Part shown: piece by piece, positions 3,483 through 64,000 of the stretch
Numbering within the stretch: position 1 is the first letter of the stretch
Layout: every line of letters starts with the position of its first letter
Assembly: GCA_025363555.1 (NCBI GenBank)
Contig: JANYDQ010000236.1
Coordinates: 3,741 to 67,740, forward strand
DNA length: 64,000 bases
Direction of reading: 5' to 3'
Source of the DNA: Bacteroidota bacterium
Lineage (GTDB): Bacteria > Bacteroidota > Bacteroidia > 2-12-FULL-35-15
Program-made: the position numbers and the translations under genes
Notes under the pieces: generated by a model
Databases searched by the model: none
The model's input: only the letters and a program-made list of their open reading frames with translations
Told to the model about the DNA's origin: nothing

Positions 3483-3580
3483 CCGGAAAAGTTATTTCCC
3501 GAATTATTGGAACAACTCCAATAGTTGTTGGAGCGGCTCCAATAGTTATAAAAATAGCTTCCCGGAGGGCAAAAATGCCT
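3483..3580. repeat. series of short palindromes phased about 21 nt apart
   Basis: GGAAAA-gtta-TTTCCC, ATTGGA-acaac-TCCAAT, TTGGAGC-g-GCTCCAA, GGCA-aaaa-TGCC; CTCCAATAGTT recurs exactly 21 nt apart (3516, 3537). Confidence 0.45.
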
Positions 3581-9046: not shown

Positions 9047-9805
9047 ATGTCAAAATCAAACATTCTTATTGTTGAAGACGAAAGCATAGTTGCTAAGGAT
9101 ATTCAACACAGTTTAAAAAAATTAGGATACACTGTTGTAGAAATTTGTTCTAACGGTGAAGATGCAATCCGGATTGTAGAAGAACTAAAACCTAACTTAG
9201 TTTTAATGGATATAATGCTAAAAGGCGATATGACTGGCATTGAAGCGGCTACTCAAATTCGGGAAAAATATAATATTCCGGTAATTTATCTGACTGCTTA
9301 TGCCGATGAAAGCACGTTGAGCAAAGCCAAAGTTTCCGAGCCCTATGGTTACATAATTAAGCCATTCAAAGAAATTGATTTGCATACTTCAATTGAAATG
9401 GCAATTTACAAACACGAAAAAGAAACGGATTTAAAAAAAGAAAGAGATTTTTTATATTCTATTGTTGAAAACAAAGAGTCGAAAGATAAAGATATGATTT
9501 TTGTTAAATCCAATTCACGATTAATAAAAGTTAATAGTACTGACGTTTATTTTGTGGAGGCACTGAAAGATTATGTGATCATTAATACAGAAACAGCAAA
9601 ATATACTATTCATTCTACGATGAAAGAAATAGAAAAAAAATTGTCGTCAGCGGATTTTATTCGTGTTCATCGTTCATTTATTGTTCGTTTGGATAAAATT
9701 GTTGCGATAGAGCAACCCAACTTAATTTTAGAAAACGATAAAAAATTAATTCCTATTGGCGGTTCATATAAAGATGAATTGACAAAACGGTTAAATTTGA
9801 TGTAA
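9047..9805 (+). CDS. response regulator, REC plus LytTR DNA-binding domain
   Basis: 252 aa; ILIVEDE...LVLMDI receiver; C-terminal FIRVHRSFIV LytTR signature; starts 1 nt after the kinase stop. Confidence 0.9.
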   Translation: MSKSNILIVEDESIVAKDIQHSLKKLGYTVVEICSNGEDAIRIVEELKPNLVLMDIMLKGDMTGIEAATQIREKYNIPVIYLTAYADESTLSKAKVSEPYGYIIKPFKEIDLHTSIEMAIYKHEKETDLKKERDFLYSIVENKESKDKDMIFVKSNSRLIKVNSTDVYFVEALKDYVIINTETAKYTIHSTMKEIEKKLSSADFIRVHRSFIVRLDKIVAIEQPNLILENDKKLIPIGGSYKDELTKRLNLM

Positions 9806-14021: not shown

Positions 14022-14086
14022 GTAATATATTGATATGTAATTTATTGTTTGGTTTTAATTACCTTTAAAAAGGTTTGTTAATTCCA

Positions 14087-14170
14087 AAATAACGTTTGTT
14101 TTTTACGAAATAACATTTGGTTTTTGATAAAAACCATTTGGTATTTGGCAAAAACCAACATTGTTATTTG
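14087..14170. repeat. four 21-nt-phased A-tract/T-tract units
   Basis: AAATAACGTTTGTTTTTTACG / AAATAACATTTGGTTTTTGAT / AAAAACCATTTGGTATTTGGC / AAAAACCAACATTGTTATTTG. Confidence 0.6.
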
Positions 14171-22526: not shown

Positions 22527-22737
22527 CTGTTTTCAAAAAGGAAAAACTGTTTTCGGATAACAAAACAGTGTTTTCCGATTGGCAATGGGGTTTTTCTTAT
22601 CGGAAATAACATTTTCGTGATAGCAAAAAAGCCATTCCCGATTGGAAAAGAGATTTTTGCGATAGCAAAAAACGTTTTTGCTATCGCAAAAATCCTATTT
22701 CCGATTGGAAATGGAGCATTTCCGGCAGTGAGAACAA
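22527..22737. repeat. ten degenerate ~21-nt units, each a T-tract/A-tract palindrome
   Basis: Examples: TTTTGC-gata-GCAAAA, TTTTGC-tatc-GCAAAA, TTTCC-gatt-GGAAA. T-tract spacing is 20,21,21,20,21,22,21,21,21. Confidence 0.7.
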
Positions 22738-41546: not shown

Positions 41547-41621
41547 CAGGAAATCTTATTTTGAATTAGTTTACAAATGTAATTTGTTTTCTGACACAAA
41601 GCACCCCTCCCCCTCCCCTCC

Positions 41622-41990: not shown

Positions 41991-42116
41991 GGAATCGGAG
42001 ACCTCATTTCGGGAATCGGAGACCTCTTTTGGCGAATGTAAGAGCTTATCCTTGGAAAGAGCTCTTGCAAACAAGGAATGTAAGAGCTTATTCGGGGAAA
42101 GAGCTCTTGCATGTAC
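41991..42116. repeat. six 21-nt phases: 2 x 21-nt unit plus 2 x 42-nt unit
   Basis: GGAATCGGAGACCTCNTTTNG x2, then (C/G)GAATGTAAGAGCTTAT...GGAAAGAGCTCTTGCA x2. Every phase begins GGAAT/GGAAA/CGAAT. The 42-mers contain an AAGAGCT/AGCTCTT hairpin. Confidence 0.6.
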
Positions 42117-42266: not shown

Positions 42267-42425
42267 TTTTGTTTTAAAATCCTGTAGGGATTGAATGTGA
42301 ATAGCCCCCAATGAAATTGGTGGTTGGAAGAACACCCATCTTTTACAACTCTGAAAGAGTTGAACTTGGTATATTCAACTCCTGTCGGAGTAACCGTCAG
42401 GAAGCGTAACCCTCTCCTTTCGGGA

Positions 42426-42446
42426 GCAATGTCATTAAGTTAAGGA
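42426..42446 (+). repeat. third direct copy of the 21-mer GCAATGTCATTAAGTTAAGGA
   Basis: Identical 21-mer; preceded by the CTCCTTTCGGGAG hairpin; abuts the truncated end of the transposase remnant. Confidence 0.6.
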
Positions 42447-42885: not shown

Positions 42886-42907
42886 TTTCCTTAATAATGA
42901 TTGAGAT

Positions 42908-51096: not shown

Positions 51097-54000
51097 ATGA
51101 AAAAACTTTTACTACTACTAATCGTATTAACCACTTTATCAATTAAAACATTTGCACAAGCTTCACCCGAAGGAATAAATTACCAGGCTGTAGCCAGAAA
51201 TATTTCAGGCAACGCAATGTCCTTAACTCCCCTTACTGTTCGTTTTTCTGTGCACGATTTAACAGTTGGTGGAGCTATTGTTTACCAGGAAACGCATGGA
51301 ACCACCACAAATGTATATGGATTATTTACACTTGTTATTGGAAATGGTACTGTTATTACAGGTTCTTTTCCAACCATAAATTGGGGAGTTGGAAATAAAT
51401 TCCTGGAAGTTGAGGTGAATGATGGAGGCGGATATATCTCTATGGGAACAACTCAAATGATGAGTGTTCCTTATGCATTGTATGCAAAAACGGCAGGTGC
51501 CGTTGCAGGTGGAGTTAATGGACCAACTGGTGCTACCGGAGCAACCGGAATAGTTGGTATTACCGGAGCAACCGGGAATAATGGAACGAACGGAACTAAC
51601 GGAATTGCAGGAGTTACTGGTGCAACGGGTACTAATGGAACAAACGGAATAGCAGGAGCTACTGGTGCAACAGGTTCTAATGGTACAAACGGAACTAATG
51701 GTGTAGCAGGAAATACGGGTGTAACCGGAGCAACAGGTACAAATGGTATCAACGGAACAAATGGAACAGCAGGTGCTACTGGAGCCACAGGGATTGATGG
51801 TAGTACCGGAGCAACTGGTACCAACGGAACTAACGGAATTGCAGGAGCAACAGGAGTTACTGGTGCCACAGGTTCTATCGGAGCAACGGGAATAGGTGGA
51901 GCAACGGGTTCTGATGGAGCAACTGGTTCAATTGGTGCAACAGGGATAGCAGGAGCAACGGGTTCTGTTGGAGCAACGGGTTCAATAGGGGCAACAGGAA
52001 TAGATGGAGCAACCGGTTCTGTTGGAGCAACAGGTTCAATAGGTGCAACAGGGGTAGCAGGAACAACGGGTTCTGTTGGAGCTACTGGTTCAATAGGGGC
52101 AACTGGAATAGATGGTGCAACGGGTTCTGTTGGAGCAACAGGTTCAATAGGAGCTACTGGAATAGATGGCGCAACTGGTTCAATTGGCCCTACAGGTGCA
52201 ATAGGGGCAACTGGAATAGATGGTGCAACAGGGATAGCAGGAGCAACAGGTTCTGTTGGAGCAACTGGTTCAATAGGTGCAACAGGAGTAGCAGGTGCTA
52301 CAGGTTCTGTTGGTGCAACTGGTTCAACAGGTGTTGCAGGAGCAACGGGTTCTGTTGGAGCTACTGGTTCAATAGGTGCAACAGGAGTAGCGGGAGCAAC
52401 TGGTTCTGTTGGAGCTACTGGTTCTGTTGGTGCAACAGGAGTAGCAGGAGCAACGGGTTCAACAGGTGCAACAGGAGTAGCGGGAGCTACAGGTTCTGTT
52501 GGAGCAACTGGTTCAATAGGTGCAACAGGGGTAGCGGGAGCTACAGGTTCTGTTGGAGCAACTGGTTCAATTGGTGCAACTGGAGTGGCAGGCGCAACAG
52601 GAGTAGCCGGTGCTACAGGTTCTGTTGGAGCTACTGGTTCAATAGGAGCAACAGGGGTAGCTGGTGCAACAGGTTCTGTTGGAGCTACAGGTTCTGTTGG
52701 AGCAACTGGTTCAATTGGTGCAACAGGGATAGCAGGTGCTACTGGTTCAATAGGTGCAACAGGTGTTGCAGGATCAACGGGTTCTGTTGGGTCAACAGGA
52801 ACTACTGGGGTAACTGGTGCAACCGGCACCAACGGAACCAACGGAACCAACGGAACCAATGGTATAGCAGGAACTACGGGAGTAACTGGTGCAACAGGAG
52901 CAACTGGTGCAACTGGCGTAGGTCTATTAGGGTTAACTGGAGTTACTGGGGCAACCGGAGCAACCGGAACAAATGGAACTAATGGTTCTACAGGAGCAAC
53001 AGGTGCTGCTAATATCAATGGTACTATAAACAATGTTATTAAGTTTACTGCGGCAACAACAGGAGGTAATTCTCAAATTTTCGATAACGGAACAAATGTG
53101 GGTATTGGAGTACCTGCATATACCCCATCAAGTTTGCTTGAATTAAATCAAAATAATAACACCTCTACCGATGGTACATTACTTTCTATCACCAATACAA
53201 ACGGAGCAGATAATACAATTTCAGGAATTAGATTCAAATCTTCCACAGTAACTGGCAATCAAACTTATAAAGGAGGGTTATTTTTCCAAACTACAGCCAC
53301 AGCTGGCAATGGAAGGGGGGATATGATTTTGGCACTAAATACAAGTGGAGGTGCGGGAAATAATGTTAATGCTGCTGATGCAGTAATGATAATTAAAAAT
53401 TCAGGCAATGTTGGTATTGGAACTACTTCGCCAAATATTACCGGAATGACAAAAGCATTAACTGTATCTTCTGCCGAAACTTATATTAATAATGCACCTG
53501 TAGGTTTAGAATTAAAAGGTTCTACTCAAACCGGAAATGCTAAATTAGGACAAATCAGTTTTATTTCTGCTTTTGCATCCACCGAAAATGCAAGAATTGA
53601 AACAAGGACAAGTAATTCTGATGTAAGGGATGGTCAGTTAGCGTTTTATACAAGAAATACCTCTGTTGGTAATATTTTTGAAAGAATGACAATTGATGAA
53701 AACGGTAAAGTAGGTATTGGTACTTCTGCCCCTTCTGCTACTCTTCACGTTGTTGGAGGTGCACGGATTACCGGATTAGGTGGCTCTGGAATTGTTTCTG
53801 CTGATGCGCTTGGTAATTTAAGTGCTGGTGCAATTTCTGGTACCTTAAGCGGAGGCACTACCAACTATGTTCCAAAATGGTCTTCTGCTACTGCCTTATC
53901 TTCCACTTCTAATATTTATGATAATGGAACAGGTGTGGGCATTGGTACTACTGCTCCTACCACTACTCTTTCGGTGGGTAATGGTGCAACAGAAAAATTT

Positions 54001-55386
54001 CAGGTTGACGGTGCCACAGGCGATGTCAACTTCCTCGATCCACAGGGTTCTGTTACTTTCCCTGAACTTCCGGCAGGTTCAGGAGTTGCTGCTCCTATGA
54101 TTCAAATGTTTGCAAACGGGACTAATAACCTTGACAGAATGGTCATTGCACACAGTGCGGCTTTTCCAACGTATGGTTTGCAATACCAGGATGCATCTGA
54201 TAAATTTAATTTCCTTAGTAACGGCAATAATGTGATGACAGTAGATTTATCAGGTTCTAAGGTAGGGATTGGTATTTCAACTCCCGCCTCCTTATTGCAT
54301 GTTAACGGTGCTGCCCAATTGGGTTTGGCAGCTAACACCACAGGGCAGTTAATATTCAGCAACTCTCAAACAGCTAATTCTGTTACTATTCTTTCGGGGT
54401 TTACTAATGCTGCATCAGGAGGTCCTTACACCATTACATTACCTGTTTCCAATCCTACAGTTGCTAATTCGGCTTTAATAAGCACAACTTCAGGAGCTAA
54501 TGCTACCTTGGCTTGGGCTGCTCCGGGCGCTGCAGGTGCAGGACTGCCAGCAGGTACAAAATGGAAAACAATGGTATTCGACTCTGCAACCTCTTTATGG
54601 CAAGCCTCCAGTAATATTTATAATACAGGAACAAATGTGGGAATAGGTATTACATCGGGTATTACTTCAAAATTAGATGTTGCCAATAATCTTGTAACCT
54701 GGTCGCAAGGTGCAACCACTTATTCTAATGCCATCCAGGGAACAACAACTGGTTCTGCTTTTTCAAACAGAGGAACCATGGGGGTAAGTTTTGCAACCGG
54801 GACAAATGGTATCGGGATTTATGGAGCTTCTAACGGTTCAGCTACCAATAATATGGGTGTTTACGGTGATGCGCAATTTGGAACAAATAATTATGCAGGG
54901 TATTTTGACCATGGAAATGTGCTAATTAAAAATAATTTGCAGGTAAATGGAATGGTGCGATTGGGTTCTGAATCAGGTACTGCTCAACCTCCTACATATT
55001 CTTCCGCCCCTTCTTCCACCGGTCTAGTTGTCAGAAGAGTATATTCTACTGTTCAAACTGCGGGATCTGTTGTTGCTTTAACTGACCAAATAAGTCTTGA
55101 ACGCGATGGTACTTCTGGTGGCTGGAGAATAAACAGGACAGGTGCCGGTACAAATATGGTTTGCAATGTTATAGCACTCAATTCATCGGGTACAAGTGTT
55201 AATATATCTAACAGTGCACTTGCAGCAGGCATAACTACTCTATATACCAATGCTCAAAATATAGTTTTCATCCACATTATGTTTGGCGACCCTTACAATG
55301 GAGGAAATACAACAGAGGTTACCCTTACGCGTAATTCAACCGATTATTTCTGGATGGGAACTATGACTTCTACTTTTAATCAATAA
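51097..55386 (+). CDS. collagen-like (Gly-X-Y) surface protein with tail-fibre-like C-terminal region
   Basis: 1429 aa; signal peptide ...KTFAQ; about 490 aa of G-X-Y; C-terminal half has five or more (N/K)VGIG(T/I) motifs; no T9SS sorting domain seen. Confidence 0.85.
51520..53010 (+). repeat. coding tandem repeat (GATGS[VI][10 protein letters not shown][VI][AD] units)
   Basis: Near-identical 27/54-nt units; one register break (GVGLLG); generates a spurious 520-aa antisense ORF. Confidence 0.9.
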
Positions 55387-55425: not shown

Positions 55426-55534
55426 ATGAACAAAATCACAAAAACTATTTCAATTTATGAAAGGTATGTACTTTGTAAGATTAATAGATATAGATAATAA
55501 CGTGCTTCATACTGAAAGGTTAATAAAACAATAG
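55426..55534 (+). pseudogene. orphan 3-prime fragment of a T9SS type-A sorting domain
   Basis: Reads ...KTISIYE then, after a 1-nt shift at GAAAGG, KGMYFVRLIDIDNNVLHTERLIKQ*. There is no upstream body. Confidence 0.5.
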
Positions 55535-55641
55535 AGCATTATTAACAACTCGAAGAACAAAAGAATTTAATTGATATGATGATTAAAAAGTAAAAGATTG
55601 CTTTGTTTACAAAGGAACGAATGATACATACAAAGGAGCAT

Positions 55642-55893
55642 ACAACATGTTTGTTGTAAAGCACAAGATGTTTGTTGTATCATACAACATGTTTGTTGTA
55701 TCACACAACATGTTTGTTGTATCACACAACATGTTTGTTGTATCACACAACATGTTTGTTGCATAGCACAACATGTTTGTTGCATAGCACAACATGTTTG
55801 TTGTATCACACAACATGTTTGTTGCATTACACAACATGTTTGTTGTATCACACAACATGTTTGTTGTATAGCACAACATGTTTGTTGTAACAT
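55642..55893. repeat. 12 x 21-bp perfect-phase tandem array
   Basis: ACAACATGTTTGTTG core plus 6-nt variable linker; no spacers; ends 43 nt before the ATG at 55937. Confidence 0.95.
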
Positions 55894-55936
55894 ACAAGAA
55901 TGATGAATAAGTGGTGTATAATACTTAAAAAAACGA

Positions 55937-56689
55937 ATGATTATTAAAAAACACATACTAATTACCTTAATAATAGCTTTGAGTTCAGGCATTTACGCCC
56001 AAATTCAAAATAATCCTCCCATGAGGCAGGTTTTGGGTACCACAGGCGGAACACATACCTCCGCCACCATGAGTTTGGATTATACCGTGGGCGAACCGAT
56101 GGTGGAAACGTTTACTCCCGGAAGTCCGTTTTTGGTTAAAACCATTACCCAGGGATTTCAGCAGCCTTATAATAATGCGTTAAACATTCATGTCATTCAT
56201 ACCAACTCCACCTGCATCGGTGCCAACAATGGTTCTGCATCCATTGCAGTGCTCACCAGCACCGGCACAGTTCATTATTACTGGTTTTCGCCTTTGGCAG
56301 ATAGCAGCAGCACGGTTTCTAACCTGGTGCAGGGGGTGTATCATTATTGGGTGTTTGACGGAACTTTTACCATTACCGATTCGTTGGTAATTAACGAAGA
56401 TGCAGTTCCCTGCCAGTCTCCCCTGGTGTTTTACACCGGCATAACGCCAAACGGAGACGGCAATAACGACACCTGGTGGATTACCCATATTGAGGAATAT
56501 CCTGAAAATACGGTTTCCATTTTCAACCGTTGGGGAAGTTTGGTGTGGAAAAAATCGGGGTATGACAATTCGAGCACAATTTGGGACGGGACCAATAATA
56601 ATGGTGTTTCATTGCCCGATGCCACTTATTTTTATGTAGTGGAAATTCCCAGTGGCACCTGGAAAGGCTGGGTTCAGTTAACGCATTAG
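55937..56689 (+). CDS. T9SS type-B (CHU_C) cargo protein
   Basis: 250 aa; signal peptide; C-terminal YTGITPNGDGNNDTWWI...FNRWGSLVW...YFYVVEI...GWVQLTH. Confidence 0.8.
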   Translation: MIIKKHILITLIIALSSGIYAQIQNNPPMRQVLGTTGGTHTSATMSLDYTVGEPMVETFTPGSPFLVKTITQGFQQPYNNALNIHVIHTNSTCIGANNGSASIAVLTSTGTVHYYWFSPLADSSSTVSNLVQGVYHYWVFDGTFTITDSLVINEDAVPCQSPLVFYTGITPNGDGNNDTWWITHIEEYPENTVSIFNRWGSLVWKKSGYDNSSTIWDGTNNNGVSLPDATYFYVVEIPSGTWKGWVQLTH

Positions 56690-56769: not shown

Positions 56770-56885
56770 CTCCCTCCCCTTTCTTCAAGGGGAGGGGTTG
56801 GGGGTGAGGTCTTCAAAGATAGAACTAATAATACAAGTATTCACACCGGCTCCCCTCTCCTTTTGGAGAGAAGTCGGGGTTAAAA
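56770..56885 (+). repeat. two tandem GC-rich hairpin REP-like elements
   Basis: CTCCCCTT-tcttc-AAGGGGAG + GGGTTGGGGGTGAGGTC; then CTCTCC-tttt-GGAGAG + AAGTCGGGGTTAAAAC. Confidence 0.55.
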
Positions 56886-56893
56886 CACAACCG

Positions 56894-57838
56894 ATGAAAA
56901 AATTAATTATTCTTTTTACCATCATCATCTCCCTCCTTTATGGAAAGGGCTGGGGTGGGATGTTGTTTGCGCAGCAAGACCCGCAATACAGCCAGTACAT
57001 GTTTAACCAAATGGCTATTAACCCTGCCTATGCCGGAAGCAAGGAAGCCATTTGCGCTGCAACTTTTCTTCGCACCCAATGGACCGGAATAGAAGGCGCG
57101 CCCAAAACGGAAACCATTACCGTTCACGGTCCGTTTGCAAAACGAAAAGTAGGTTTGGGCGGTGCCATTATTGCCGACCAGGTAGGACCCACCAAAAGCA
57201 TTGGCGTTATGGGTTCATACGCCTACCGCATAAAAATTAAAAACGGTAAATTATCTTTTGGCTTGCGTGCCGGTATTTATAACTATACCTATAACTGGGA
57301 TGCCATAACCTATAAAGACCAGGCAGACGTGTATAACACCCACACACAAACTTCGAAAATAGTGCCTACGGCAGATGCCGGCATTTATTATTATACCCGG
57401 TCAGAATACATTGGGTTAAGTGCCACTCATCTTTACAATGGAAGATTAACCACCGTTTCCAATTTTAGCGGAGACGATGTTCGCTTTTCGCGCCACTATT
57501 TTTTAACTGCGGGAAAAGCCTGGGCGTTTGGCGACAATTTTGTTTTTAACCCATCCGTTTGTGTAAAAGGTGCTAAAGGTTCGCCCTTTAATCTGGATGT
57601 AAATTTGAGTTTTTATTTGGATAAAAAATTATGGATTGGAGTTTCCGGTCGTTCCAATAAGGATTTCGTAATCTATGCCCAGGTTAATCTTACCGAAAAA
57701 TTAAAATTAGGATATGCTTTCGATTCCGGGTTTGGTCAAATTGCAAAACTGGGAAGAGGAACTCACGAACTGATGTTGAGTTACGACTTTAATGTGTTTA
57801 AATCAAAAATGCTTTCACCTCGACATTTATATTTTTAA
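56894..57838 (+). CDS. T9SS membrane protein PorP/SprF family
   Basis: Start moved to MKKLIILF at 56894 (the listed N-terminus is translated REP element); AQQDPQYSQYMFNQMAINPAYAGS signature. Confidence 0.85.
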   Translation: MKKLIILFTIIISLLYGKGWGGMLFAQQDPQYSQYMFNQMAINPAYAGSKEAICAATFLRTQWTGIEGAPKTETITVHGPFAKRKVGLGGAIIADQVGPTKSIGVMGSYAYRIKIKNGKLSFGLRAGIYNYTYNWDAITYKDQADVYNTHTQTSKIVPTADAGIYYYTRSEYIGLSATHLYNGRLTTVSNFSGDDVRFSRHYFLTAGKAWAFGDNFVFNPSVCVKGAKGSPFNLDVNLSFYLDKKLWIGVSGRSNKDFVIYAQVNLTEKLKLGYAFDSGFGQIAKLGRGTHELMLSYDFNVFKSKMLSPRHLYF

Positions 57839-57869
57839 TATCAACAAAAAACGATTGCGTACAATTGAT

Positions 57870-60617
57870 ATGAAAAAAATAAAATCAGCTGGTTTATTAT
57901 TCTTAATTATTATTTCTACTACGGCTTTTGCTCAACTAAAACGTGCCAATAAATTTTACGACCATTATGATTATGCCCGGGCAATAGAGCTTTATAAAAA
58001 ACTATTGAACAAAGAGGAAGATGCTGAAGCGTTAGAAAAAATTGCCAACTGCTATCGTTTAACCAGAAATTATGCTAAAGCTGAACAGTTTTATTCCCGC
58101 CTCATTACTATTCCCGGTATCAATCCTGTTAATCATTTTTATTATGGCGAAGTACTGAAAAATCAAAACAAACCGGACGAAGCCAAGCAGCAGTTTAATT
58201 TGTATTTGAATACCGTGCCCAACGACAGGGAAGTGCAGGAGTCGGTAAAATCGTGCGACAATGTTAAAATCTGGGTAAAAAAAACACAGCAATTCGACAT
58301 TACACCCGTTGCTGGTTTAAATACCTCTCATTCCGAATTCAGTCCATCTATTGTAAAAGATAAATTAATTTTTACATCCGACCGCACACAAGACCTGGTA
58401 AATAACTTTAACTATTCATGGAACAAGCAACCGTTTCTGAACGAATACTATGTCACCATTCTTGGTAAAAAAGACAGTAATTTGGTTTTGTCAAAAACTC
58501 CTAAATTAATGCCATGGCCCGTAAATACTGCTTTTCACGATGGACCCATGTGTTTTGATGAAAAAACAAATACCATGTATATTACCCGCGTAGATTATGA
58601 AGTAAAAAAAAGAAATCTAAAATTTATTAATCGTCCCAAATTGTTTTCTGCCACCATGGTGGGAAATAACTGGGAAGACATGAAGCCCTTTAAATATAAC
58701 AGCGATGATTATTCTGTTGCTCACCCCAGTGTTTCTTCTGATGGTCAGTGGTTATTTTTCGCTTCCGATATGCCGGGCGGAAAAGGCGGATTTGATATTT
58801 ACAGATGCCACAAAGAAACGGATGGCTGGGGAATTCCCGAAAACCTGGGCGATGAGGTAAACAGTGCGAACGAAGAATTGTTTCCATTTATTCGCAAAGA
58901 TGGCACATTGTACTTTGCCTCCGACCGCCATACCGGTTTTGGCGGATTAGATGTTTTTTCTGCAACCATGGTAAATAATAAATATAGCGGGGTTTCTAAT
59001 CTTGGCGCTCCGCTCAATTCCTCTACCGATGATTTCGGAATTATTTTTACAGACGATTTTACAAGGGGTTATTTTTCGTCCGACAGGGCTTCGGGCAAAG
59101 GTGCAGACGATATATATAGTTTTATAGCGCTCAATAAATACATCCAAATTGAAGGGAAATTATTATTGAGCCAAAATATAAATGACCCGTTGAAAAATAT
59201 GCAGATTAAATTATTAACCGAAGATGGAAAATTAATTAATTCAACTGTCACCGATAGCATCGGGCATTTTAAATTCGAAAACCTGAATCCCGATATTAAA
59301 TATTTAGTACAACTGGACGAAACCAACCCTCAACTGGTGGACAAAGACAAAGTGTATATGGCAAACACGAATGATAAAATTGTCAGAGTAATAGTGATAA
59401 ACGACAGAGGAGGGAAATTTATTTTCAACGATTTGCCTCTTGACCCCAATGAAATGGAATTGATACCCGTAGCTAATGATGCCACTTTTGCTGGTAATTT
59501 ACTATACGGAACTGACCCTTCCAAACCATTAGCAAATCAGAAAGTTAATTTAGTAAACGATAAAGGGGAAATAATAGCCACTACTACTACTAATAGTAAA
59601 GGAGCTTTTGTGTTCCGTAATTTACCTGCTGACCAGAATTTTCTTGTAAAGGTGGATGAATCAAATCCTAAACTGGAAGCAAATACCAAAATAACAATTA
59701 CCAATAAAAAAGGGGAAGAAATGCAAACTACCAATGCGGGAGACAAAGGGCAGTTTAAATTCACGTTTTTATCTTCAGACAAAGTTACTATGAAAGAAAT
59801 GTCGGTGGAAGACAGTGAACTTAAATTTGATTTTAAAGGAAGATTAGCCAATGAATACAAATCTCCGCTAATAAATTCGGTGGTTAATTTGGTAAACGAA
59901 AAAGGAGAGATTTTGAAAACCACCCGCACCGATGCAAAAGGCGGTTTTCAGTTTGTTAACCTGCCAAGCGACAAAAGTATGTTATTTGCTCTTGAAGAAG
60001 AAAATGACAGCAAAATACAATCAAGTAACAAATTATTTTTAACGGATTCTAATGGTAAAATTATAAAAGAATTTACTCGGAATAAAAACGGCAAATTCGA
60101 TTTCACACTTTTGCCCAGCGACCTGAAAAAATTAGGAGAATTATATGTAGATGATACGCAGCTTTCGTTTACTCATAAAAAAACAACTCCAAAAGCAGGA
60201 ATAAAAACGGAACCAAAAACGGAACCCAAAACAAATGAGACAATAGCAACCATCGAAAATCTGTATTACGATTTTGACGAGTATTTAATATTACCCCAAT
60301 CCATTAAAACACTTTATAAGATAACAGATATTATGCAAAAAAATCCTGACTATTTTATTGAGTTCTCTTCCTATTCTGATGCCCGGGGCACTGCCGATTA
60401 CAATTTGAAATTATCCATGCGCAGAGCAAAATCGGCAAAGGACTTTTTAATTGTGGAAGGAATTGATGCTAAAAGAATTTCAGCAAAAGGCTATGGTGAA
60501 ACTAATTTAGTGAATAGTTGCGGGGATAATAAGGAATGTTCGGAAGAACAACACCAGGAAAACAGGCGAACGGAGGTAAAAATATTTAAAAAACAGGAAG
60601 TATTAAGCAGGAAGTAA
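57870..60617 (+). CDS. OmpA-family peptidoglycan-associated protein with TPR, propeller-like and CarboxypepD_reg-like repeats
   Basis: Start at MKKIKSAGLLFL (57870); C-terminal OmpA block NLKLSMRRAKSAKDFL...NRRTEVKI; usual partner of PorP/SprF operons. Confidence 0.8.
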   Translation: MKKIKSAGLLFLIIISTTAFAQLKRANKFYDHYDYARAIELYKKLLNKEEDAEALEKIANCYRLTRNYAKAEQFYSRLITIPGINPVNHFYYGEVLKNQNKPDEAKQQFNLYLNTVPNDREVQESVKSCDNVKIWVKKTQQFDITPVAGLNTSHSEFSPSIVKDKLIFTSDRTQDLVNNFNYSWNKQPFLNEYYVTILGKKDSNLVLSKTPKLMPWPVNTAFHDGPMCFDEKTNTMYITRVDYEVKKRNLKFINRPKLFSATMVGNNWEDMKPFKYNSDDYSVAHPSVSSDGQWLFFASDMPGGKGGFDIYRCHKETDGWGIPENLGDEVNSANEELFPFIRKDGTLYFASDRHTGFGGLDVFSATMVNNKYSGVSNLGAPLNSSTDDFGIIFTDDFTRGYFSSDRASGKGADDIYSFIALNKYIQIEGKLLLSQNINDPLKNMQIKLLTEDGKLINSTVTDSIGHFKFENLNPDIKYLVQLDETNPQLVDKDKVYMANTNDKIVRVIVINDRGGKFIFNDLPLDPNEMELIPVANDATFAGNLLYGTDPSKPLANQKVNLVNDKGEIIATTTTNSKGAFVFRNLPADQNFLVKVDESNPKLEANTKITITNKKGEEMQTTNAGDKGQFKFTFLSSDKVTMKEMSVEDSELKFDFKGRLANEYKSPLINSVVNLVNEKGEILKTTRTDAKGGFQFVNLPSDKSMLFALEEENDSKIQSSNKLFLTDSNGKIIKEFTRNKNGKFDFTLLPSDLKKLGELYVDDTQLSFTHKKTTPKAGIKTEPKTEPKTNETIATIENLYYDFDEYLILPQSIKTLYKITDIMQKNPDYFIEFSSYSDARGTADYNLKLSMRRAKSAKDFLIVEGIDAKRISAKGYGETNLVNSCGDNKECSEEQHQENRRTEVKIFKKQEVLSRK

Positions 60618-60630
60618 AAAGCATTAAGAT

Positions 60631-60668
60631 AAAAAAATCCGCTACGTTTTAACCTAGCGGATTTTTTA
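60631..60668. terminator. bidirectional rho-independent terminator
   Basis: ATCCGCTA-N10-TAGCGGAT flanked by A7 and T6. Confidence 0.65.
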
Positions 60669-60694: not shown

Positions 60695-61132
60695 TTATTT
60701 ATCTAAATCTTCAAAGTTCACATCCGTAAAACTATTATCCGTTTTAGGAATTTCATTTTCCTGTTTCGTATCCACAAAAGGCGTTTCACTTCTTTCGTGA
60801 TATTGACGTGGTTCAATTTCAGGAGAGTTTGTTTTGATATGTGCCAATGTTTCCGTTAGCCCTTCCACAAATCTTTCAAAATCTTCTTTATATAGAAACA
60901 ATTTATGTTTCTCATAAATAAATTTCCCATCATCATTCATTCTTTTTTTGCTTTCGGTAATAGTTAAGTAGAGTTCATTTTGCCTGGTGTTTTTCACATC
61001 AAAAAAATAAGTCCTTTTACCTGCTCTTACTGATTTTGAAAAAATTTCATCTCTTTCAATTCCGTTTTTTTCTTTTCCTTCTTCCATCGTTTTTTTAATA
61101 TTGTTTATCGTTGTTAAATCTTCGGTCGGCAA
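60695..61132 (-). CDS. DUF3276 (PUR-alpha-like nucleic-acid-binding) protein
   Basis: 145 aa; SKSVRAGKRTYFFDVKNTRQNELYLTITESKK pattern. Confidence 0.8.
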   Translation of the reverse strand: MPTEDLTTINNIKKTMEEGKEKNGIERDEIFSKSVRAGKRTYFFDVKNTRQNELYLTITESKKRMNDDGKFIYEKHKLFLYKEDFERFVEGLTETLAHIKTNSPEIEPRQYHERSETPFVDTKQENEIPKTDNSFTDVNFEDLDK

Positions 61133-61205: not shown

Positions 61206-64000
61206 CTATTTCACCAACATTACGCTTCCCTGCTCTTTCGCTATTTCACCATTACAGAAGGTAACTTCCAGTTTATACACAAATTCATTATTGTTCATGG
61301 GCAGACCATGCAATGTCCCATCCCAGCCTTCAAGCAAATCCGATGTTTCAAAAACTTTTTCACCCACACGGTCAAATATTTTCAGGTTGATGAAATCAAT
61401 ACCTCTGCCCTGCACAAGAAGAATATCATTATTTCCATCACCATTTGGAGAAAATCCTGTCGGCATAAAATAAGTATAACGAGCAGTAACGTTTACCACT
61501 GTAGTATCCGTATTAACGCAACCGTTCACATCCTGGTAGGTAACATAATATTGTTGACTTAGGTTAGGAGAAACAGTGGCTGTTTGGCACGTGCCACAAG
61601 CAAGGTGAATGTTTGGTCCCCACAAATAAGAAAGTCCTGTAGGTTGAGCCGTCAGGTCCGTACTTTCACAGGCATTGATACTCGTATTTCCCGTAATGGT
61701 AACAGGTATAGGTGTTACAATATGTATGTAACCGGTTCTTATCATCGTATCCGTCCCTCCCGAATTGCTCACAATTAATGTTACAGTATAGTTTCCCGGG
61801 GCGGAATAACACACATTAATAGGTCCGCTGGTGATGGCAGTAGCAGGTGTCCCCCCCGGAAATGACCAACTCCAGGTCGTTGGTGGTCCTATACTCAAAT
61901 TAGTAAAGTTAACACAACCGCTGTTGCAAAGCAATGTGTCATTTGCCACAAAGTTGGCAGTTGGCGGGGTACAACTGTTTACGGTAACTGTGGCAACAGC
62001 CGTATTCGAACAACCGTTTGTGGTTCCAGTTACCGTGTAAGTAATAGTTCCTAAAGTGCCAGGTGTGGCCGTGGCAGTGCTCACTCCAGTTGAAGTGGCT
62101 CCTGCACTCCAATTATAGGTAGTTCCACCTGTTGCCGTTAAAGTAGCAGCAGTTCCTAAACAAATAGATGGCGAATTAACTGTTACTACCGGAATCGGGT
62201 TGGCAGTAATAGTTACCTGAGAAGTGGTTGGCGCACATGGCGAACTGGTAATGGTCCATTGAAAAACATTCGCTCCGGTTCCCAATCCCGTGAGCCCCGA
62301 TGTGGGTGAGGTGGATGCGGTAATGGTTCCCGCTCCGCTTATTAATGTCCAAAGTCCTGAACCTATACTTGCGGTATTCCCGGCAAGTGTGGCAGTCGTT
62401 CCGCAAATAGTTTGGTTAAGTCCTGCTGCCGCTATGGTTGGTGCCGGGTTAACTGTTATCGTTACCTGCGAAGAGGAAGACGGGCAGGGAGCGTTCGATA
62501 TGGTCCATTGAAACACATTGGCTCCTGCCCCCAGGGCAGTAACCGTTGATGTCGGAGATGTCGGAGTAGTAATGGTTCCCGCTCCTGAAATTAATGTCCA
62601 TAACCCTGTGCCGGCAATAGCTGTATTTCCTGACAAAGTAGCCGAAGGGGTACAGATAGATTGATTTGCCCCCGCAACCGATACTGTTGGTGTAAGGGAT
62701 GATGTTATTGTTACCTGTGATGTAGAGGCAGGACAAGGCAGATTATCTATTTCCCATTGAAACACATTGGCTCCTGCACCCATCCCGGTAATGGTTGTGG
62801 TTGGAGAAGTTGGGGTTGTAATGGTTCCTGTTCCACTTATTAATGTCCAAAGTCCTGTTCCCACCACAGAAGTATTTGCTGCCATTGTTGCATTTGCTCC
62901 GCAAACGGTTTGGTTAGGTCCGGCTGCTGCTGTGGTTGGTCCTCCTGTATTGGTAATGGTTACCTGCGAGGAGGAAGAAGCACAAGGAGCATTGGAAATT
63001 GTCCATTGAAAAACATTAGCTCCTGCTCCTAAACCTGTAACTATTGATGTTTCTGATGTAGGTGTAGTTATTGTTCCTGTTCCGCTTACCAATGTCCATA
63101 AACCTGTTCCAAAGGTTGCAACGTTTCCGGCAAAGGTTGCCGATGTGGAACAAATGATTTGGTTCGCTCCCGCTGCCGCTAAGGTTGGAGTAGCTACTGA
63201 TGTTATAGTAACCTGCGATGTACTTGCCGGGCAGGGAAGATTATCTATTTCCCATTGAAACACATTGGCTCCTGCACCCATCCCGGTAATGGTTGTGGTT
63301 GGAAAAGTTGGAGTGGTGATTATTCCTGTTCCGCTTATTAACGTCCAAAGTCCTGTTCCTACAACAGGAGTATTTCCAGCCATTGTTGCATTCGCTCCGC
63401 AAACCATTTGGTTAGGCCCTGCAACTGCTGTGGTTGGTCCCCCTGTGTTGGTAATGGTTACCTGAGATGAAGAAGAAGGACAAGGCGCATTGGAAATTGT
63501 CCATTGAAAAACATTAGCTCCAACTCCTAAGCCTGTTAAGCCTGATGTTTCTGATGCAGTTGTGGTTATTGTTCCTGTTCCGCTTACCAATATCCATAAA
63601 CCTGTTCCAACGAGTGCCGTATTTCCTGCTAAGGTTGCTGTGGCTGAACAAATGGTCTGGTTAGGTCCTGCCGTGGCTAATGTTGGAGTAGCCACTGATG
63701 TGATGGTTACCTGTGATGTGCTTGGAGCGCAAGGGAGATTATCTATTTCCCATTGAAATACATTTGTTCCCAAGCCTAAGCCTGTTATTCCTGTTGTTGG
63801 AGATGTTGGTGTTGTAATTGTTCCGGTTCCACTAATTAAGGTCCAAAGTCCTGTTCCCACCATAGGAGTATTTGCTGCCATAGTTGCATTCGCTCCGCAA
63901 ACCGTTTGGTTAGGTCCTGCAACTGCTGTGGTTGGCCCTCCTGTGTTGGTAATTGTTACCTGGGATGAGGAGGAAGGACAAGGAGCATTGGAAATTGTCC
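61206..64000 (-). CDS. giant modular T9SS type-B (CHU_C) adhesin, 5-prime end beyond the window
   Basis: The frame stays open to position 64000. About 83-aa modules alternate (..VFQWEIDNLPC.. / ..VFQWTISNAPC..). PKD-like region; C-terminal FSPNGDGNNDILLV...GSVMLVK. Confidence 0.85.
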   Translation of the reverse strand, partial: TISNAPCPSSSSQVTITNTGGPTTAVAGPNQTVCGANATMAANTPMVGTGLWTLISGTGTITTPTSPTTGITGLGLGTNVFQWEIDNLPCAPSTSQVTITSVATPTLATAGPNQTICSATATLAGNTALVGTGLWILVSGTGTITTTASETSGLTGLGVGANVFQWTISNAPCPSSSSQVTITNTGGPTTAVAGPNQMVCGANATMAGNTPVVGTGLWTLISGTGIITTPTFPTTTITGMGAGANVFQWEIDNLPCPASTSQVTITSVATPTLAAAGANQIICSTSATFAGNVATFGTGLWTLVSGTGTITTPTSETSIVTGLGAGANVFQWTISNAPCASSSSQVTITNTGGPTTAAAGPNQTVCGANATMAANTSVVGTGLWTLISGTGTITTPTSPTTTITGMGAGANVFQWEIDNLPCPASTSQVTITSSLTPTVSVAGANQSICTPSATLSGNTAIAGTGLWTLISGAGTITTPTSPTSTVTALGAGANVFQWTISNAPCPSSSSQVTITVNPAPTIAAAGLNQTICGTTATLAGNTASIGSGLWTLISGAGTITASTSPTSGLTGLGTGANVFQWTITSSPCAPTTSQVTITANPIPVVTVNSPSICLGTAATLTATGGTTYNWSAGATSTGVSTATATPGTLGTITYTVTGTTNGCSNTAVATVTVNSCTPPTANFVANDTLLCNSGCVNFTNLSIGPPTTWSWSFPGGTPATAITSGPINVCYSAPGNYTVTLIVSNSGGTDTMIRTGYIHIVTPIPVTITGNTSINACESTDLTAQPTGLSYLWGPNIHLACGTCQTATVSPNLSQQYYVTYQDVNGCVNTDTTVVNVTARYTYFMPTGFSPNGDGNNDILLVQGRGIDFINLKIFDRVGEKVFETSDLLEGWDGTLHGLPMNNNEFVYKLEVTFCNGEIAKEQGSVMLVK

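What the first reader, a model, noticed from the sequence alone, without database searches (positions are those of the whole stretch)
55642..55893. Twelve head-to-tail 21-bp dyad-symmetric units directly upstream of a T9SS type-B cargo / PorP / OmpA operon
Seen: 12 contiguous 21-nt units without spacers (ACAACATGTTTGTTG plus a 6-nt linker). The 15-nt core is identical in 11 of 12 units (unit 2 has ACAAGATG). Nearly all variation is in the linker: TATCAC x5, CATAGC x2, CATTAC, TATAGC, TAAAGC, TATCAT, TAACAT. The core contains the perfect palindrome AACATGTT and the hexamers ACAACA / TGTTGT. The two hexamer orientations therefore alternate every 10-11 bp, giving about 24 half-sites on one helical face over 252 bp. 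As RNA, either strand could fold into strings of 6-bp hairpins in two competing registers. The array ends 43 nt before the ATG at 55937. The three listed ORFs here (QQTCCVI, TNMLCDT, TTCLLYH heptads) are the repeat read in different frames. Inference: a cooperative operator or silencer array, a copy-number switch for the downstream surface-protein operon, or a structured RNA. Established context: LytTR regulators use 9-bp repeats with 12-13-bp spacers, which is a 21-22-bp phase, and a LytTR response regulator is encoded at 9047-9805. The unit matches that consensus only 7/9 (CATGTTTGT).
Basis: partly seen in the sequence, partly recalled or inferred. Interest (0 to 1): 0.78.

Follow-up and report, generated by a model that had tools for sequence, protein, structure and literature searches.

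The report
Recurrent 21-bp intergenic repeat arrays
The twelve 21-base repeats are real and belong to a set of fast-evolving arrays, all with a 21-bp period (about two turns of the DNA helix), found between genes in one group of freshwater Bacteroidia; one such array has been kept in front of this surface-protein secretion operon in at least four lineages while its sequence turned over, which hints at a function that is still unproven.

Summary
There are 12 spacerless 21-bp units at 55642-55893. The 15-nt core is identical in 11 of 12 units, and almost all variation lies in the 6-nt linker. The array ends 43 nt before the ATG of a T9SS type-B cargo / PorP / PorE-like operon.

The unit sequence is private to this lineage. 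It was not found in GTDB genomes, JGI metagenomes, viral contigs, plasmids or phages.

The comparative picture is the new result:
- Four related lineages carry a 21-bp-period array at the same place, with mostly unrelated unit sequences.
- More distant relatives have only 25-58 bp there.
- A second site, downstream of gldC, behaves the same way.
- In 127 kb from four genomes of the clade, 9 of 12-13 non-coding arrays have period 21, 42 or 63. None of 5 do in outgroup loci.
- A sister array differs by exactly 7 units between strains.

No Bacteroidetes-type promoter, terminator, known RNA, flanking terminal inverted repeats or coding signal was found.

Best reading: a variable-number minisatellite whose units all lie on one face of the helix. 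It most likely acts at the DNA level as a row of identical protein-binding sites in the spacer before the cargo operon. A function-less slippage product is nearly as likely. The proposed link to the LytTR regulator at 9047-9805 is not supported for this unit. Moderately interesting; a new variant of a known kind.

The parts
55642..55893 (.). Twelve head-to-tail 21-bp units: a 15-nt core ACAACATGTTTGTTG followed by a 6-nt variable linker. TRF extends the match to 55897.
55608..55641 (.). About one and a half older, degenerate 21-bp units of a different subtype (TACAAAGGAACGAATGATACA, then the start of TACAAAGGAGCAT...). They lie immediately 5' of the homogeneous array. The second copy runs into array unit 1.
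   Evidence: exact 9-mer TACAAAGGA recurs at lag 21; sequence
55601..55614 (.). Short palindrome CTTTGT-TT-ACAAAG in the left flank. Its half-sites resemble those of the array.
   Evidence: read directly
55546..55593 (+). Remnant of the last 15 codons and the stop of the ancestral upstream gene (QLEEQKNLIDMMIKK*, the tail of a Peptidase_S74 chaperone domain). It marks the ancestral gene end, 48 bp before the array.
   Evidence: the block is conserved in L005 and L010, and in L010 it is still the in-frame C-terminus of an S74-containing protein
55457..55534 (+). Remnant resembling the end of a T9SS type-A C-terminal sorting domain (MKGMYFVRLIDIDNNVLHTERLIKQ*).
   Evidence: translation; assigned by resemblance only, not tested with a profile
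55894..55936 (+). 43-nt spacer between the array and the cargo ATG. It starts with a degenerate 13th unit (ACAAGAATGATG...), contains TATAAT at 55917-55922, and has an A-rich stretch before the ATG. No Bacteroidetes -7 motif.
51097..55386 (+). Upstream collagen-repeat giant protein (1429 aa). It has lost the S74 C-terminus that its L010 ortholog keeps.
55937..56689 (+). 250-aa T9SS type-B cargo (signal peptide; CHU_C / TIGR04131).
56798..57838 (+). PorP/SprF-family membrane protein. Coordinates are the longest ORF; orthologs are 314 aa, so the true start is probably further downstream.
57792..60617 (+). PorE / CHU_0125-like TPR + beta-propeller + CarboxypepD_reg + OmpA protein.
22542..22711 (.). 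Sister array: about 8 degenerate units of roughly 21 bp (TRF period 63/21), with TTTTGCGATAGCAAAA-type palindromes, downstream of gldB and a gldC-like gene. The same position in relative L100 holds a 12.7-copy 21-bp array.
14073..14157 (.). Sister array: about 4 degenerate 21-bp units between convergent genes, one of them a PKD/CHU_C cargo.
3507..3547 (.). Two 21-bp units (TTGGA-N5-TCCAA palindrome). They lie in the spacer upstream of the genes for a MORN protein, a PAS kinase and the LytTR regulator.
41991..42110 (.). A 21-bp unit repeated 2.2 times, followed by a 42-bp unit repeated twice (palindrome AAGAGCTCTT), in a 1.36-kb spacer.
9047..9805 (+). Receiver + LytTR response regulator, with a PAS/HisKA_2 kinase at 5587-9045.

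Best explanation
Shown: this is a lineage-private, rapidly evolving 21-bp minisatellite of the variable-number type. It is one member of a clade-wide set of intergenic arrays that share a 21-bp period (two helical turns) but not their sequence. It fills the spacer between the decayed 3' end of a collagen-like adhesin gene and a T9SS type-B cargo / PorP / PorE-like operon. A 21-bp array has been kept at that spot in at least four lineages.

Inferred mechanism: the array works at the DNA level. Because 21 bp is two helical turns, every copy of the conserved 15-bp, partly dyad-symmetric core faces the same side of the helix. A sequence-specific DNA-binding protein, not yet identified, could therefore occupy the cores side by side and polymerise cooperatively along about 250 bp. 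The geometry is that of iterons, of LytTR sites (9+12), of AraC/XylS sites (15+6) or of tandem ArgR boxes (18+3); the last two are from my own knowledge. The 6-bp linkers would not be contacted and are free to vary. Such a filament would act as a roadblock or silencer, or less likely as an enhancer-like platform, for transcription entering the cargo operon from upstream.

Gain or loss of whole units by slippage keeps the helical phase but changes the number of sites, and so would tune expression between strains. The arrays probably arose by slippage-driven expansion of ordinary two-copy operator pairs spaced 21 bp apart. Such pairs are also seen in these genomes.

The confidence given applies to the whole statement including the inferred mechanism; the descriptive part alone is close to certain.
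For: Reality and anatomy.

Unit private to the lineage.

Same site, same period, different unit in relatives:
- L010 has 8.2 copies of AACAGTTGGTAAAATGRTTCY.
- L005 has 8 degenerate units at 9807-9974 in perfect register with no indels.
- L099 starts inside an array whose unit matches individual L005 units at 18/21 and 15/21, in register, and the L005 consensus at 16/21. This holds even though the two cargo proteins are only 62% identical.
- More distant orthologs have 58 and 25 bp and no array.

Second conserved site, downstream of gldC: the window array at 22542-22711 corresponds to L100 11807-12073, which has 12.7 copies.

Period census: 9 of 12-13 non-coding arrays in 126.7 kb of the clade have period 21, 42 or 63, against 0 of 5 in about 432 kb of outgroup loci. 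Fisher one-sided p is 0.009 on the 9-of-12 count and about 0.015, computed by hand, if a 13th array at 60587-60635 that partly overlaps coding sequence is counted.

Core constrained relative to linker: across 22 units from two strains that are 96.5% identical, there are 9 linker haplotypes but only one core substitution. At least 7 of 8 distinct variant states fall in 6 of the 21 columns (binomial p about 1e-3, computed by hand). The same pattern of conserved core and variable remainder is seen in L005d, L010 and L100.

Unit-wise length change: strain L007 lacks exactly 147 bp (7 units) of the L005 array at 14626, with SNPs in the flanks.

No coding, RNA-family, promoter or terminator signal competes with a DNA-level reading.

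LytTR sites are direct repeats separated mostly by 12 bp (PMC6193735). BldC is a precedent for cooperative multimers on variable numbers of direct repeats (PMC5859096).
Against: No binding protein has been identified and no regulator gene is linked to the locus.

Units differ between arrays, so each array would need its own binder, or else a sequence-blind one.

Sister arrays also lie where there is nothing obvious to regulate. L005 14626 sits between convergent genes, and window 14073 likewise.

The oldest array (L005 upstream) shows no column-specific conservation (p = 0.5), as expected for neutral decay.

The conservative event-count test on the window array alone is not significant (longest invariant run, p = 0.11).

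Dyad symmetry is not universal: the L010 and L100 units lack it.

The L010-type array is identical in five assemblies, so it is not visibly hypervariable there.

The total copy number in the second strain of this species is unknown, because its contigs end inside the array.
Confidence: 0.4

Rival explanations
1. A function-less minisatellite. Slipped-strand mispairing or unequal recombination keeps expanding and contracting a local duplication. The period is inherited simply because existing units template new ones. Persistence at the site reflects a slippage-prone spacer, not selection.
For: The unit has no counterpart anywhere else. Array edges are degenerate while the centre is homogeneous, as in neutral satellites. 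The old L005 upstream array decays evenly across its columns. Arrays appear and disappear at other sites and even between strains. Some lie between convergent genes. Non-coding satellites are documented in prokaryotes (PMC6749651).
Against: It does not explain why unrelated arrays at many loci share exactly 21, 42 or 63 bp. It does not explain why variation concentrates in the linker while the core stays identical across strains that are 96.5% identical. It does not explain why two separate sites keep an array across lineages whose orthologous proteins are only 62-78% identical, nor why 168 bp of diverged units have kept their register without a single indel.
Confidence: 0.3
2. An RNA-level element. 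The array is transcribed within a polycistronic mRNA running from the collagen-like gene into the cargo operon. Its string of 6-bp hairpins (ACAACA/UGUUGU, in two registers) would modulate processing, stability or translational coupling, as REP/BIME or MIRU-type intercistronic repeats do.
For: The location is intercistronic, with no promoter or terminator predicted. Outgroup spacers are only 25-58 bp, which suggests an operon. In three arrays the variable positions fall in the loops of the junction-spanning hairpins. In L010 the C/T variation is compatible with a G-U pair on the + strand. The residual state of the L005 14626 array in strain L007 is a hairpin with a 14-bp stem.
Against: Folding of the + strand RNA is no better than shuffled sequence (z = -0.86); only the antisense strand scores (z = -4.2). 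The stems are 5-6 A/U-rich pairs. The T-to-C change at unit position 16 is wobble-compatible only on the minus strand, the opposite of L010. No covariation is possible because the stems are invariant. There is no Rfam match. An exact 21-nt period has no RNA rationale. Sister arrays between convergent genes and units without dyad symmetry (L100) do not fit.
Confidence: 0.12
3. An operator array for the LytTR response regulator encoded at 9047-9805.
For: The 21-bp phase equals the LytTR 9+12 geometry (PMC6193735). The regulator is real. The orthologous L010 array contains ACAGTTGGT, which matches the LytTR consensus 9/9, every 21 bp. A two-copy 21-bp repeat lies upstream of the regulator's own gene cluster.
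Against: The best match in this unit is 7/9. A 9/9 match in one of about 8 arrays is expected by chance roughly 15% of the time (own estimate). LytTR sites normally come as two copies about 10 bp upstream of a -35 element, whereas here there are 12 copies and no promoter. The regulator is 46 kb away. No LytTR gene is seen near the orthologous loci.
Confidence: 0.06
4. Iterons or a partition centromere of an integrated plasmid or phage replicon. Twelve contiguous two-turn direct repeats, each with a conserved core, resemble R6K or pPS10 iterons, or sopC.
For: The anatomy alone: spacerless direct repeats at two-turn spacing with conserved cores, and an AT-rich flank.
Against: There is no rep, par or integrase gene. 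The neighbours are ordinary chromosomal genes in synteny conserved across lineages. There is no match in plasmids, phages or viral contigs. Several unrelated arrays occur per genome.
Confidence: 0.02

Closest known systems
BrickBuilt, the 23-nt spacerless minisatellite inside a MITE of Porphyromonas gingivalis (PMC4596501)
   Same: Same phylum. Spacerless tandem unit of about two helical turns. Always intergenic. Up to about 23 copies. Conserved and non-conserved positions within the unit. Many copies lie next to T9SS-cargo genes. Gene callers sometimes predict spurious ORFs across it.
   Different: BrickBuilt is one unit sequence dispersed at 19 loci, with leader and tail segments ending in terminal inverted repeats. 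Here each array has its own unit. No inverted repeats flank the array. The core is absent from the rest of the 64 kb. The period is 21, not 23. Promoter activity was measured for BrickBuilt and has not been measured here.
MIRU-type intercistronic minisatellites of mycobacteria, and VNTR loci used for MLVA typing (own knowledge)
   Same: Tandem units of tens of bp lying between genes of an operon, with copy number varying between strains.
   Different: MIRUs are 40-100 bp and carry small ORFs that overlap the flanking genes for translational coupling. No such ORF exists here: the cargo reading frame is closed by stop codons before the ATG. The shared two-turn period across unrelated arrays is not a MIRU feature.
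Plasmid iterons (R6K, pPS10) and the partition sites sopC and parC (own knowledge)
   Same: Contiguous direct repeats at about two-turn spacing, each with a conserved core that binds one protein unit on one face of the helix. sopC also has 12 copies, each with an internal dyad.
   Different: No Rep or Par gene, a chromosomal syntenic context, and no similarity to plasmid or phage DNA.
LytTR direct-repeat operators (PMC6193735; PMC4227749)
   Same: Direct repeats with a 12 (11-13) bp spacer, giving a 21-22-bp phase. LytTR regulators are present in this genome.
   Different: These operators are normally two copies just upstream of a -35 element. Here there are 12 copies and no promoter, the consensus match is 7/9, and the conserved core is 15 nt, not 9.
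Promoter-proximal repeat tracts that tune adhesin expression, such as the 7-bp repeats upstream of Haemophilus influenzae hmw1A/hmw2A (own knowledge)
   Same: A repeat tract between the upstream region and a surface-protein operon, with copy number as a heritable expression dial.
   Different: The unit is 21 bp rather than 1-7 bp, so changes preserve the helical phase. No promoter has been mapped and no expression data exist here.
BldC, a small MerR-like protein that binds variable numbers of direct repeats as head-to-tail cooperative multimers (PMC5859096)
   Same: A precedent for a protein filament forming on an array of direct repeats whose number differs between targets.
   Different: A different phylum and repeat length. 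No BldC-like gene has been identified here. Cited only as a mechanistic analogue (abstract only).

Membership tests
Bacterial minisatellite / VNTR | Head-to-tail tandem copies of a 10-100-bp unit in non-coding DNA | tested here: met
   12.2 copies, period 21, no indels. No frame is both open and conserved.
Bacterial minisatellite / VNTR | Copy number or unit composition differs between strains | tested here: inconclusive
   The linker series differs between the window and L014/L015, but those contigs end inside the array, so total copy number is unknown. A sister array (L005 14626) differs by exactly 7 units in strain L007. The L010-type array is identical in 5 assemblies.
BrickBuilt-like MITE minisatellite | Leader and tail segments ending in terminal inverted repeats | tested here: not met
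   The only inverted repeats found lie inside the array.
BrickBuilt-like MITE minisatellite | The same unit dispersed at many loci of the genome | tested here: inconclusive
   The core is absent from the other 63.7 kb. Units of the other arrays are unrelated. The rest of the genome could not be read.
LytTR operator | 9-bp direct repeat matching [TA][AC][CA]GTTN[AG][TG] | tested here: not met
   The best 9-mer in the unit, CATGTTTGT, matches 7/9 (checked by hand on the sequence). The consensus is taken from the finding and from memory.
LytTR operator | Repeats separated by 11-13 bp, giving a 21-22-bp phase | tested here: met
   The period is exactly 21. Spacing rule from PMC6193735.
LytTR operator | A pair of repeats about 10 bp upstream of a promoter -35 element, usually next to the regulator gene | tested here: not met
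   12 copies. No TAnnTTTG promoter on the + strand and no sigma-70-type promoter-like site between the array and the cargo ATG (the one + strand consensus hit, 55654-55683, lies inside the array and hits are no more frequent than in shuffles). The regulator is 46 kb away.
Iteron origin / partition centromere | Adjacent rep or par genes and a mobile-element context | tested here: not met
   The neighbours are T9SS, SpoIIE/HAMP, DUF4154 and housekeeping genes in conserved synteny. No plasmid or phage similarity.
CRISPR array | Repeats separated by unique spacers of about 26-72 bp | tested here: not met
   The variable segment is 6 nt and is drawn from a few recurring variants.
Known structured RNA (Rfam) | Match to a curated covariance model | tested here: not met
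   The only hit in the window is Flavo-1 at 3326-3417.
MIRU-like intercistronic repeat | Small ORF in the repeat that overlaps the stop and start of the flanking genes | tested here: not met
   The cargo-frame reading has no ATG and ends in TGA TGA before the cargo ATG. The frame that does contain an ATG is closed by TAG in the CATAGC and TATAGC linkers (and sequence).

The most novel reading that the evidence does not exclude
The clade possesses a dedicated trans-acting system that reads or writes two-helical-turn arrays more or less regardless of their sequence. This could be an uncharacterised DNA-binding or nucleoid protein, or a repeat-generating activity. In that case the 21-bp arrays would be a managed genome feature, a bacterial 'satellite' layer of regulation, and not accidents. 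The array in front of the T9SS cargo operon would be its best-conserved target.
Probability: 0.12. Interest if true: 0.8.

Novelty: new variant of a known kind. Interest (0 to 1): 0.45.

Why it matters
Intergenic minisatellites in bacteria are usually treated as typing markers or junk. Here unrelated arrays share one exact period equal to two turns of the helix. Two sites have kept an array through lineages whose orthologous proteins are only about 60-80% identical. The conserved part of the unit is shielded from the variation that hits the linker. If a protein reads these arrays, they would be a heritable dial that changes site number without changing helical phase, controlling surface-adhesin and type IX secretion operons in abundant freshwater Bacteroidia. 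They would also be an easy bait for finding the regulator. If no protein reads them, the sharp preference for 21 bp still points to an unknown mutational mechanism. Either outcome can be tested with a genome-wide census and a pull-down.

Tried and rejected
- Exact scans for a two-unit pattern (ACATGTTTGTTG-N6-ACAACATG). GTDB genomes gave three single chance hits in unrelated organisms and no arrays. JGI metagenomes gave none. Viral contigs gave none.
- BLASTN of the array plus flanks against plasmids and phages found nothing. The iteron/centromere reading is dropped.
- Rfam on the whole window hit only Flavo-1, elsewhere in the window.
- RNA folding: the + strand is no better than shuffles; the - strand has z = -4.2, but there is no reason to think it is transcribed.
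- Promoter and terminator scans: no terminator between the collagen-like gene and the cargo; sigma-70-type hits are not enriched; no TAnnTTTG motif on the + strand in any of the three array-bearing spacers.
- MITE test: no flanking inverted repeats.
- Common-origin test: pairwise comparison of 12 unit consensus sequences over all rotations and both strands. Only L005-upstream and L099 are related. The apparent TTGCGATARC similarity between window 22542 and L100 11807 is not above chance.
- Coding test: the linker variants introduce TAG in the only frame that contains an ATG; variation is not 3-periodic; frames differ between lineages. Only in L010 is the array in frame with the cargo, and there it precedes the signal peptide.
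- Intrinsic curvature, using wedge-model parameters recalled from memory: about 15 degrees per unit here, and 9-28 degrees across arrays. None differs from shuffled units, so the units do not appear optimised for bending. Coherent curvature remains a generic consequence of a 21-bp period.
- Column-heterogeneity tests are significant when mismatches are counted, but weak when only distinct events are counted.
- L096, the closest relative by cargo identity (78%), has an unrelated sequence upstream of codon ~15 on a 1.3-kb contig and was uninformative.
- P0005 (68%) had no DNA available; its gene table shows a 243-bp spacer.
- Literature searches for 21-bp intergenic repeats in Bacteroidetes found nothing specific.
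Full report

Yes. Tandem Repeats Finder reports one outstanding non-coding array at 55642-55897: period 21, 12.2 copies, 90% matches, no indels, score 393.

Cut into 21-mers from 55642, it gives 12 units. The 15-nt core ACAACATGTTTGTTG is exact in 11 of them; unit 2 has a C-to-G change. The core occurs nowhere else in the 64 kb on either strand. The array stops 43 nt before the ATG at 55937.

The three ORFs that cover the array are the repeat read in different frames. In the frame of the downstream gene the array reads QHVCCIT repeats without any ATG and is closed by TGA TGA. The only frame with an ATG is closed by TAG wherever the linker is CATAGC or TATAGC.

Independent short-read assemblies also contain the array and break inside it. 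L001 is from the same strain. L014 and L015 are from a sister strain that is 96.5% identical in the cargo gene.

**2. Gene context**

- 55937-56689: a 250-aa protein with a signal peptide and a T9SS type-B sorting domain (CHU_C / TIGR04131).
- 56798-57838: a PorP/SprF-family protein.
- 57792-60617: a TPR + beta-propeller + CarboxypepD_reg + OmpA protein most similar to PorE / CHU_0125.

Upstream lies a 1429-aa collagen-repeat protein (51097-55386), preceded by SpoIIE/HAMP, TPR and DUF4154 genes. The rest of the window is ordinary chromosome: fatty-acid synthesis genes, RNase R, RlmN, gldB, ECF sigma factors. A Flavo-1 RNA and gldB with a gldC-like gene place the organism in the Bacteroidia. 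The nearest database relatives come from lake metagenomes and are labelled only 'Bacteroidia bacterium'.

Between the collagen-like gene's stop and the array lie two gene remnants. One resembles the tail of a type-A sorting domain (55457-55534). The other is the last 15 codons plus the stop of a Peptidase_S74 chaperone domain (55546-55593). In relative L010 this second block is still the in-frame C-terminus of an S74-containing protein. In the window and in L005 the S74 domain has been lost. The array therefore starts 48 bp after the ancestral stop codon and, with its degenerate edges, fills nearly the whole ancestral spacer.

**3. The unit has no relatives elsewhere**

A two-unit pattern gave only three single chance hits in 185,579 species genomes. 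It gave none in JGI metagenome contigs and none in viral contigs. BLASTN against plasmids and phages found nothing.

**4. The position and the period do have relatives**

This is the main new result. I found homologs of the cargo protein and read their contigs. Three further lineages have the same synteny (SpoIIE, giant collagen-like gene, cargo, PorP, PorE-like) and also a 21-bp-period array directly upstream of the cargo ATG.

| Lineage | Cargo identity to window | Array upstream of the cargo ATG |
|---|---|---|
| L010 | 72% | 8.2 copies of AACAGTTGGTAAAATGRTTCY, identical in five assemblies |
| L005 | 71% | 8 diverged units in perfect register at 9807-9974; 38 mismatches to consensus, no indels |
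| L099 | 64% | contig begins inside an array of AGTTCCAGAGAGTTCTGGGAA |

The L099 unit matches individual L005 units at 18/21 and 15/21, in register, and the L005 consensus at 16/21. This is far above the null, even though the two cargo proteins are only 62% identical. At least that pair of arrays is therefore inherited from a common ancestor.

The window and L010 units are not demonstrably related to each other or to the L005/L099 unit. More distant orthologs (58% and 53% identity) have only 58 and 25 bp between the giant gene and the cargo ATG, and no array.

**5. The array is one of a family**

In the window itself there are further arrays with a 21-bp period:
- 14073-14157: about 4 units.
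- 22542-22711: about 8 degenerate units.
- 3507-3547: 2 units.
- 41991-42110: a 21-bp unit repeated 2.2 times, then a 42-bp unit repeated twice.

L005 has a second array of 8.7 copies, AAAGATTTATCTTT plus a 7-nt variable linker, between the convergent PorE-like and DUF3276 genes. L010 has a 2.5-copy array upstream of DUF3276.

To test a second site I fetched the gldB region of a relative whose GldB is 78% identical (L100). Downstream of its gldC gene, at the position of the window's 22542 array, it carries 12.7 copies of ACATTGCGATAACTATACTCC. It also has a 42-bp array of 2.9 copies just upstream of an ECF sigma gene, and a 21-bp-spaced pair of ACTGAAATTCAGT palindromes. A second assembly breaks at the first unit of the gldC-side array.

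I then counted non-coding arrays with period of at least 10 and at least 2.5 copies.

| Sequence set | Arrays with period 21, 42 or 63 |
|---|---|
| Clade: 126.7 kb from window, L005, L010, L100 | 9 of 12-13 |
| Outgroup: about 432 kb | 0 of 5 |

Fisher one-sided p is 0.009 on the 9-of-12 count. It is about 0.015, computed by hand, if a 13th array at 60587-60635 that partly overlaps coding sequence is counted.

The units are unrelated to one another beyond chance. This is therefore not one mobile element. No inverted repeats flank the window array.

**6. How the arrays evolve**

Arrays change by whole units. Strain L007 differs from L005 by four SNPs in the flanks and lacks exactly 147 bp (7 units) of the 14626 array. 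What remains is a hairpin with a 14-bp stem and a 7-nt loop.

In the window species, the sister strain has at least 10 units with a different order of linkers and two linker variants not seen in the window (AATAGC, TATTAC). All of its cores are identical to the window's.

Across the 22 units there are 9 linker haplotypes but one core substitution. At least 7 of 8 distinct variant states fall in 6 of the 21 columns (binomial p about 1e-3, computed by hand). A haplotype-tree count gives 9 of 10 events in the linker (p about 1e-4, also by hand).

The mismatch-based heterogeneity test is significant for all young arrays. The stricter event-count test is significant only for some of them. The old L005 upstream array shows no column preference at all. 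So there is evidence for constraint on the core, or for hypermutation of the linker, but it is not overwhelming.

**7. What it is not**

- *Not coding.* Stop codons appear in every usable frame, variation is not 3-periodic, and frames are not conserved. Only in L010 does the array read (M[IV][LPR]TVGK) x8 in frame with the cargo. That explains the 308- and 315-aa gene calls, but the extension precedes the signal peptide and is absent elsewhere.
- *Not a known RNA*. The sense-strand fold is no better than shuffled sequence.
- *Not a recognisable promoter or terminator.* There is no TAnnTTTG motif on the + strand in any of the three spacers, sigma-70-like hits are no more frequent than in shuffles, and no intrinsic terminator follows the collagen-like gene.
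- *Not a plasmid or phage origin or centromere*, on grounds of context and searches.
- *Not optimised for intrinsic curvature.* A wedge model gives about 15 degrees per unit, no different from shuffled units (parameters recalled from memory). Any 21-bp array will nonetheless add its bends coherently.

**8. Most likely mechanism (inferred)**

The one property shared by all these arrays is a period of exactly two helical turns, together with a conserved core of 12-16 bp and a freer remainder. That is the geometry of proteins that bind one protomer, or one dimer, per two turns on one face of the DNA:
- LytTR sites, which are direct repeats separated mostly by 12 bp (PMC6193735).
- AraC/XylS sites (15-17 + 4-6 bp), tandem ArgR boxes (18 + 3 bp) and plasmid iterons (own knowledge).
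- BldC, which shows that a small protein can multimerise on variable numbers of direct repeats (PMC5859096).

I therefore think the array is most likely a row of identical binding sites for an unidentified protein. Bound cooperatively, it would impede or modulate transcription entering the cargo operon. The number of sites would be adjustable in phase-preserving steps of 21 bp.

The arrays plausibly arose by slippage between ordinary two-copy operators spaced 21 bp apart. Such pairs occur in these genomes.

I give the functional part of this reading roughly 0.35-0.4. The descriptive part (a variable-number minisatellite belonging to a clade-wide family with a two-turn period) is close to certain.

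A function-less slippage product is the main rival, at about 0.3. It explains the even decay of the L005 array and the arrays between convergent genes. It does not explain the shared period or the conservation of the sites.

**9.

The regulator at 9047-9805 is real and the phase fits. But this unit matches the consensus at only 7 of 9 positions, there are 12 copies without a promoter, and the gene is 46 kb away.

The L010 array does match 9/9 (ACAGTTGGT every 21 bp). With about 8 arrays examined, such a match is expected by chance about 15% of the time (own estimate). A LytTR-type binder remains one candidate among several. The specific link to this regulator is unsupported.

**10. Comparison with what is known, and novelty**

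The closest described element is BrickBuilt of Porphyromonas gingivalis. It is a spacerless 23-nt minisatellite, always intergenic, often next to T9SS cargo genes, and has conserved and variable halves. However, it is a single unit sequence dispersed at 19 loci inside a MITE with terminal inverted repeats, and its promoter activity has been measured (PMC4596501).

Prokaryotic non-coding satellites in general are documented (PMC6749651). I found no report of a family of unrelated arrays locked to a 21-bp period, or of arrays conserved in position while their sequence turns over.

I file this as a new variant of a known kind. Interest is 0.45: the regularity is surprising and testable, but no function has been shown.

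Noticed in passing
window 3326-3417 (-): Flavo-1 RNA (RF01705), 56.9 bits against a gathering score of 42. It is the only Rfam hit in the window and lies about 100 nt from a two-copy 21-bp repeat at 3507-3547.
   Followed up: no
window 41547-42907: A 1.36-kb gene-free spacer packed with repeats. A dispersed ~21-nt element, GCAATGTCATTAAGTTAAGGA, occurs three times directly and once inverted. There are also 21-bp and 42-bp tandem pairs with the palindrome AAGAGCTCTT, and several long hairpins.
   Followed up: partly
window 30726-30827 (-); L100 3415-3522: A 33-aa Lys/Ala-rich ORF (MAKKAAKKAAPKKAAKKSAPKKAAKKAAKKGKK). It looks like a histone-H1-like nucleoid protein and is conserved as a 35-aa ORF in relative L100. 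Its coding repeats account for the 12/15/27-bp TRF rows there.
   Followed up: partly
window 55457-55593: Two gene remnants after the collagen-like gene's stop: one resembling a T9SS type-A sorting-domain tail, and a Peptidase_S74 chaperone tail. The upstream adhesin gene has lost its C-terminus here and in L005, but not in L010.
   Followed up: yes
window 60695-61132 (-): A DUF3276 protein is conserved immediately downstream of the operon in all lineages. Its sequence matches the Borrelia burgdorferi entries 3NM7/3N8B, deposited as 'Uncharacterized protein' (E = 8.5e-10); from memory these are the Pur-alpha-like nucleic-acid-binding fold. In L005 and L010 a 21-bp array lies next to this gene. 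No link to the arrays has been shown.
   Followed up: partly
L010 9980-10176 (also L098, L011-L013): The array reads as eight Met-initiated heptads, M[IV][LPR]TVGK, in frame with the cargo's signal peptide. Public gene calls therefore give 308- and 315-aa products. Each unit repeats the A-rich start-codon context AAAATGATT of the true start.
   Followed up: yes
L007 8684-9075 compared with L005 14512-15050: A strain-level deletion or expansion of exactly 7 x 21 bp. The short allele is a perfect hairpin with a 14-bp stem and a 7-nt loop, followed by a T-run. This array therefore seems to have grown from one arm plus the loop of a terminator-like hairpin.
   Followed up: yes
L100 13728-13849 and 14303-14343: A 42-bp array of 2.9 copies directly upstream of an ECF sigma-factor gene, and a 21-bp-spaced pair of ACTGAAATTCAGT palindromes upstream of a PKD / type-A T9SS cargo gene.
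   Followed up: no
window 61206-63881 (-) and 62320-64000: A PKD-repeat protein with a type-B sorting domain, built of 249/498-bp coding repeats. It runs to the end of the window.
   Followed up: no
window 12391-13961: An ECF sigma-factor gene is immediately followed by a PKD/CHU_C type-B cargo gene. The degenerate 21-bp array at 14073-14157 lies just downstream of that cargo gene's terminator hairpin.
   Followed up: no
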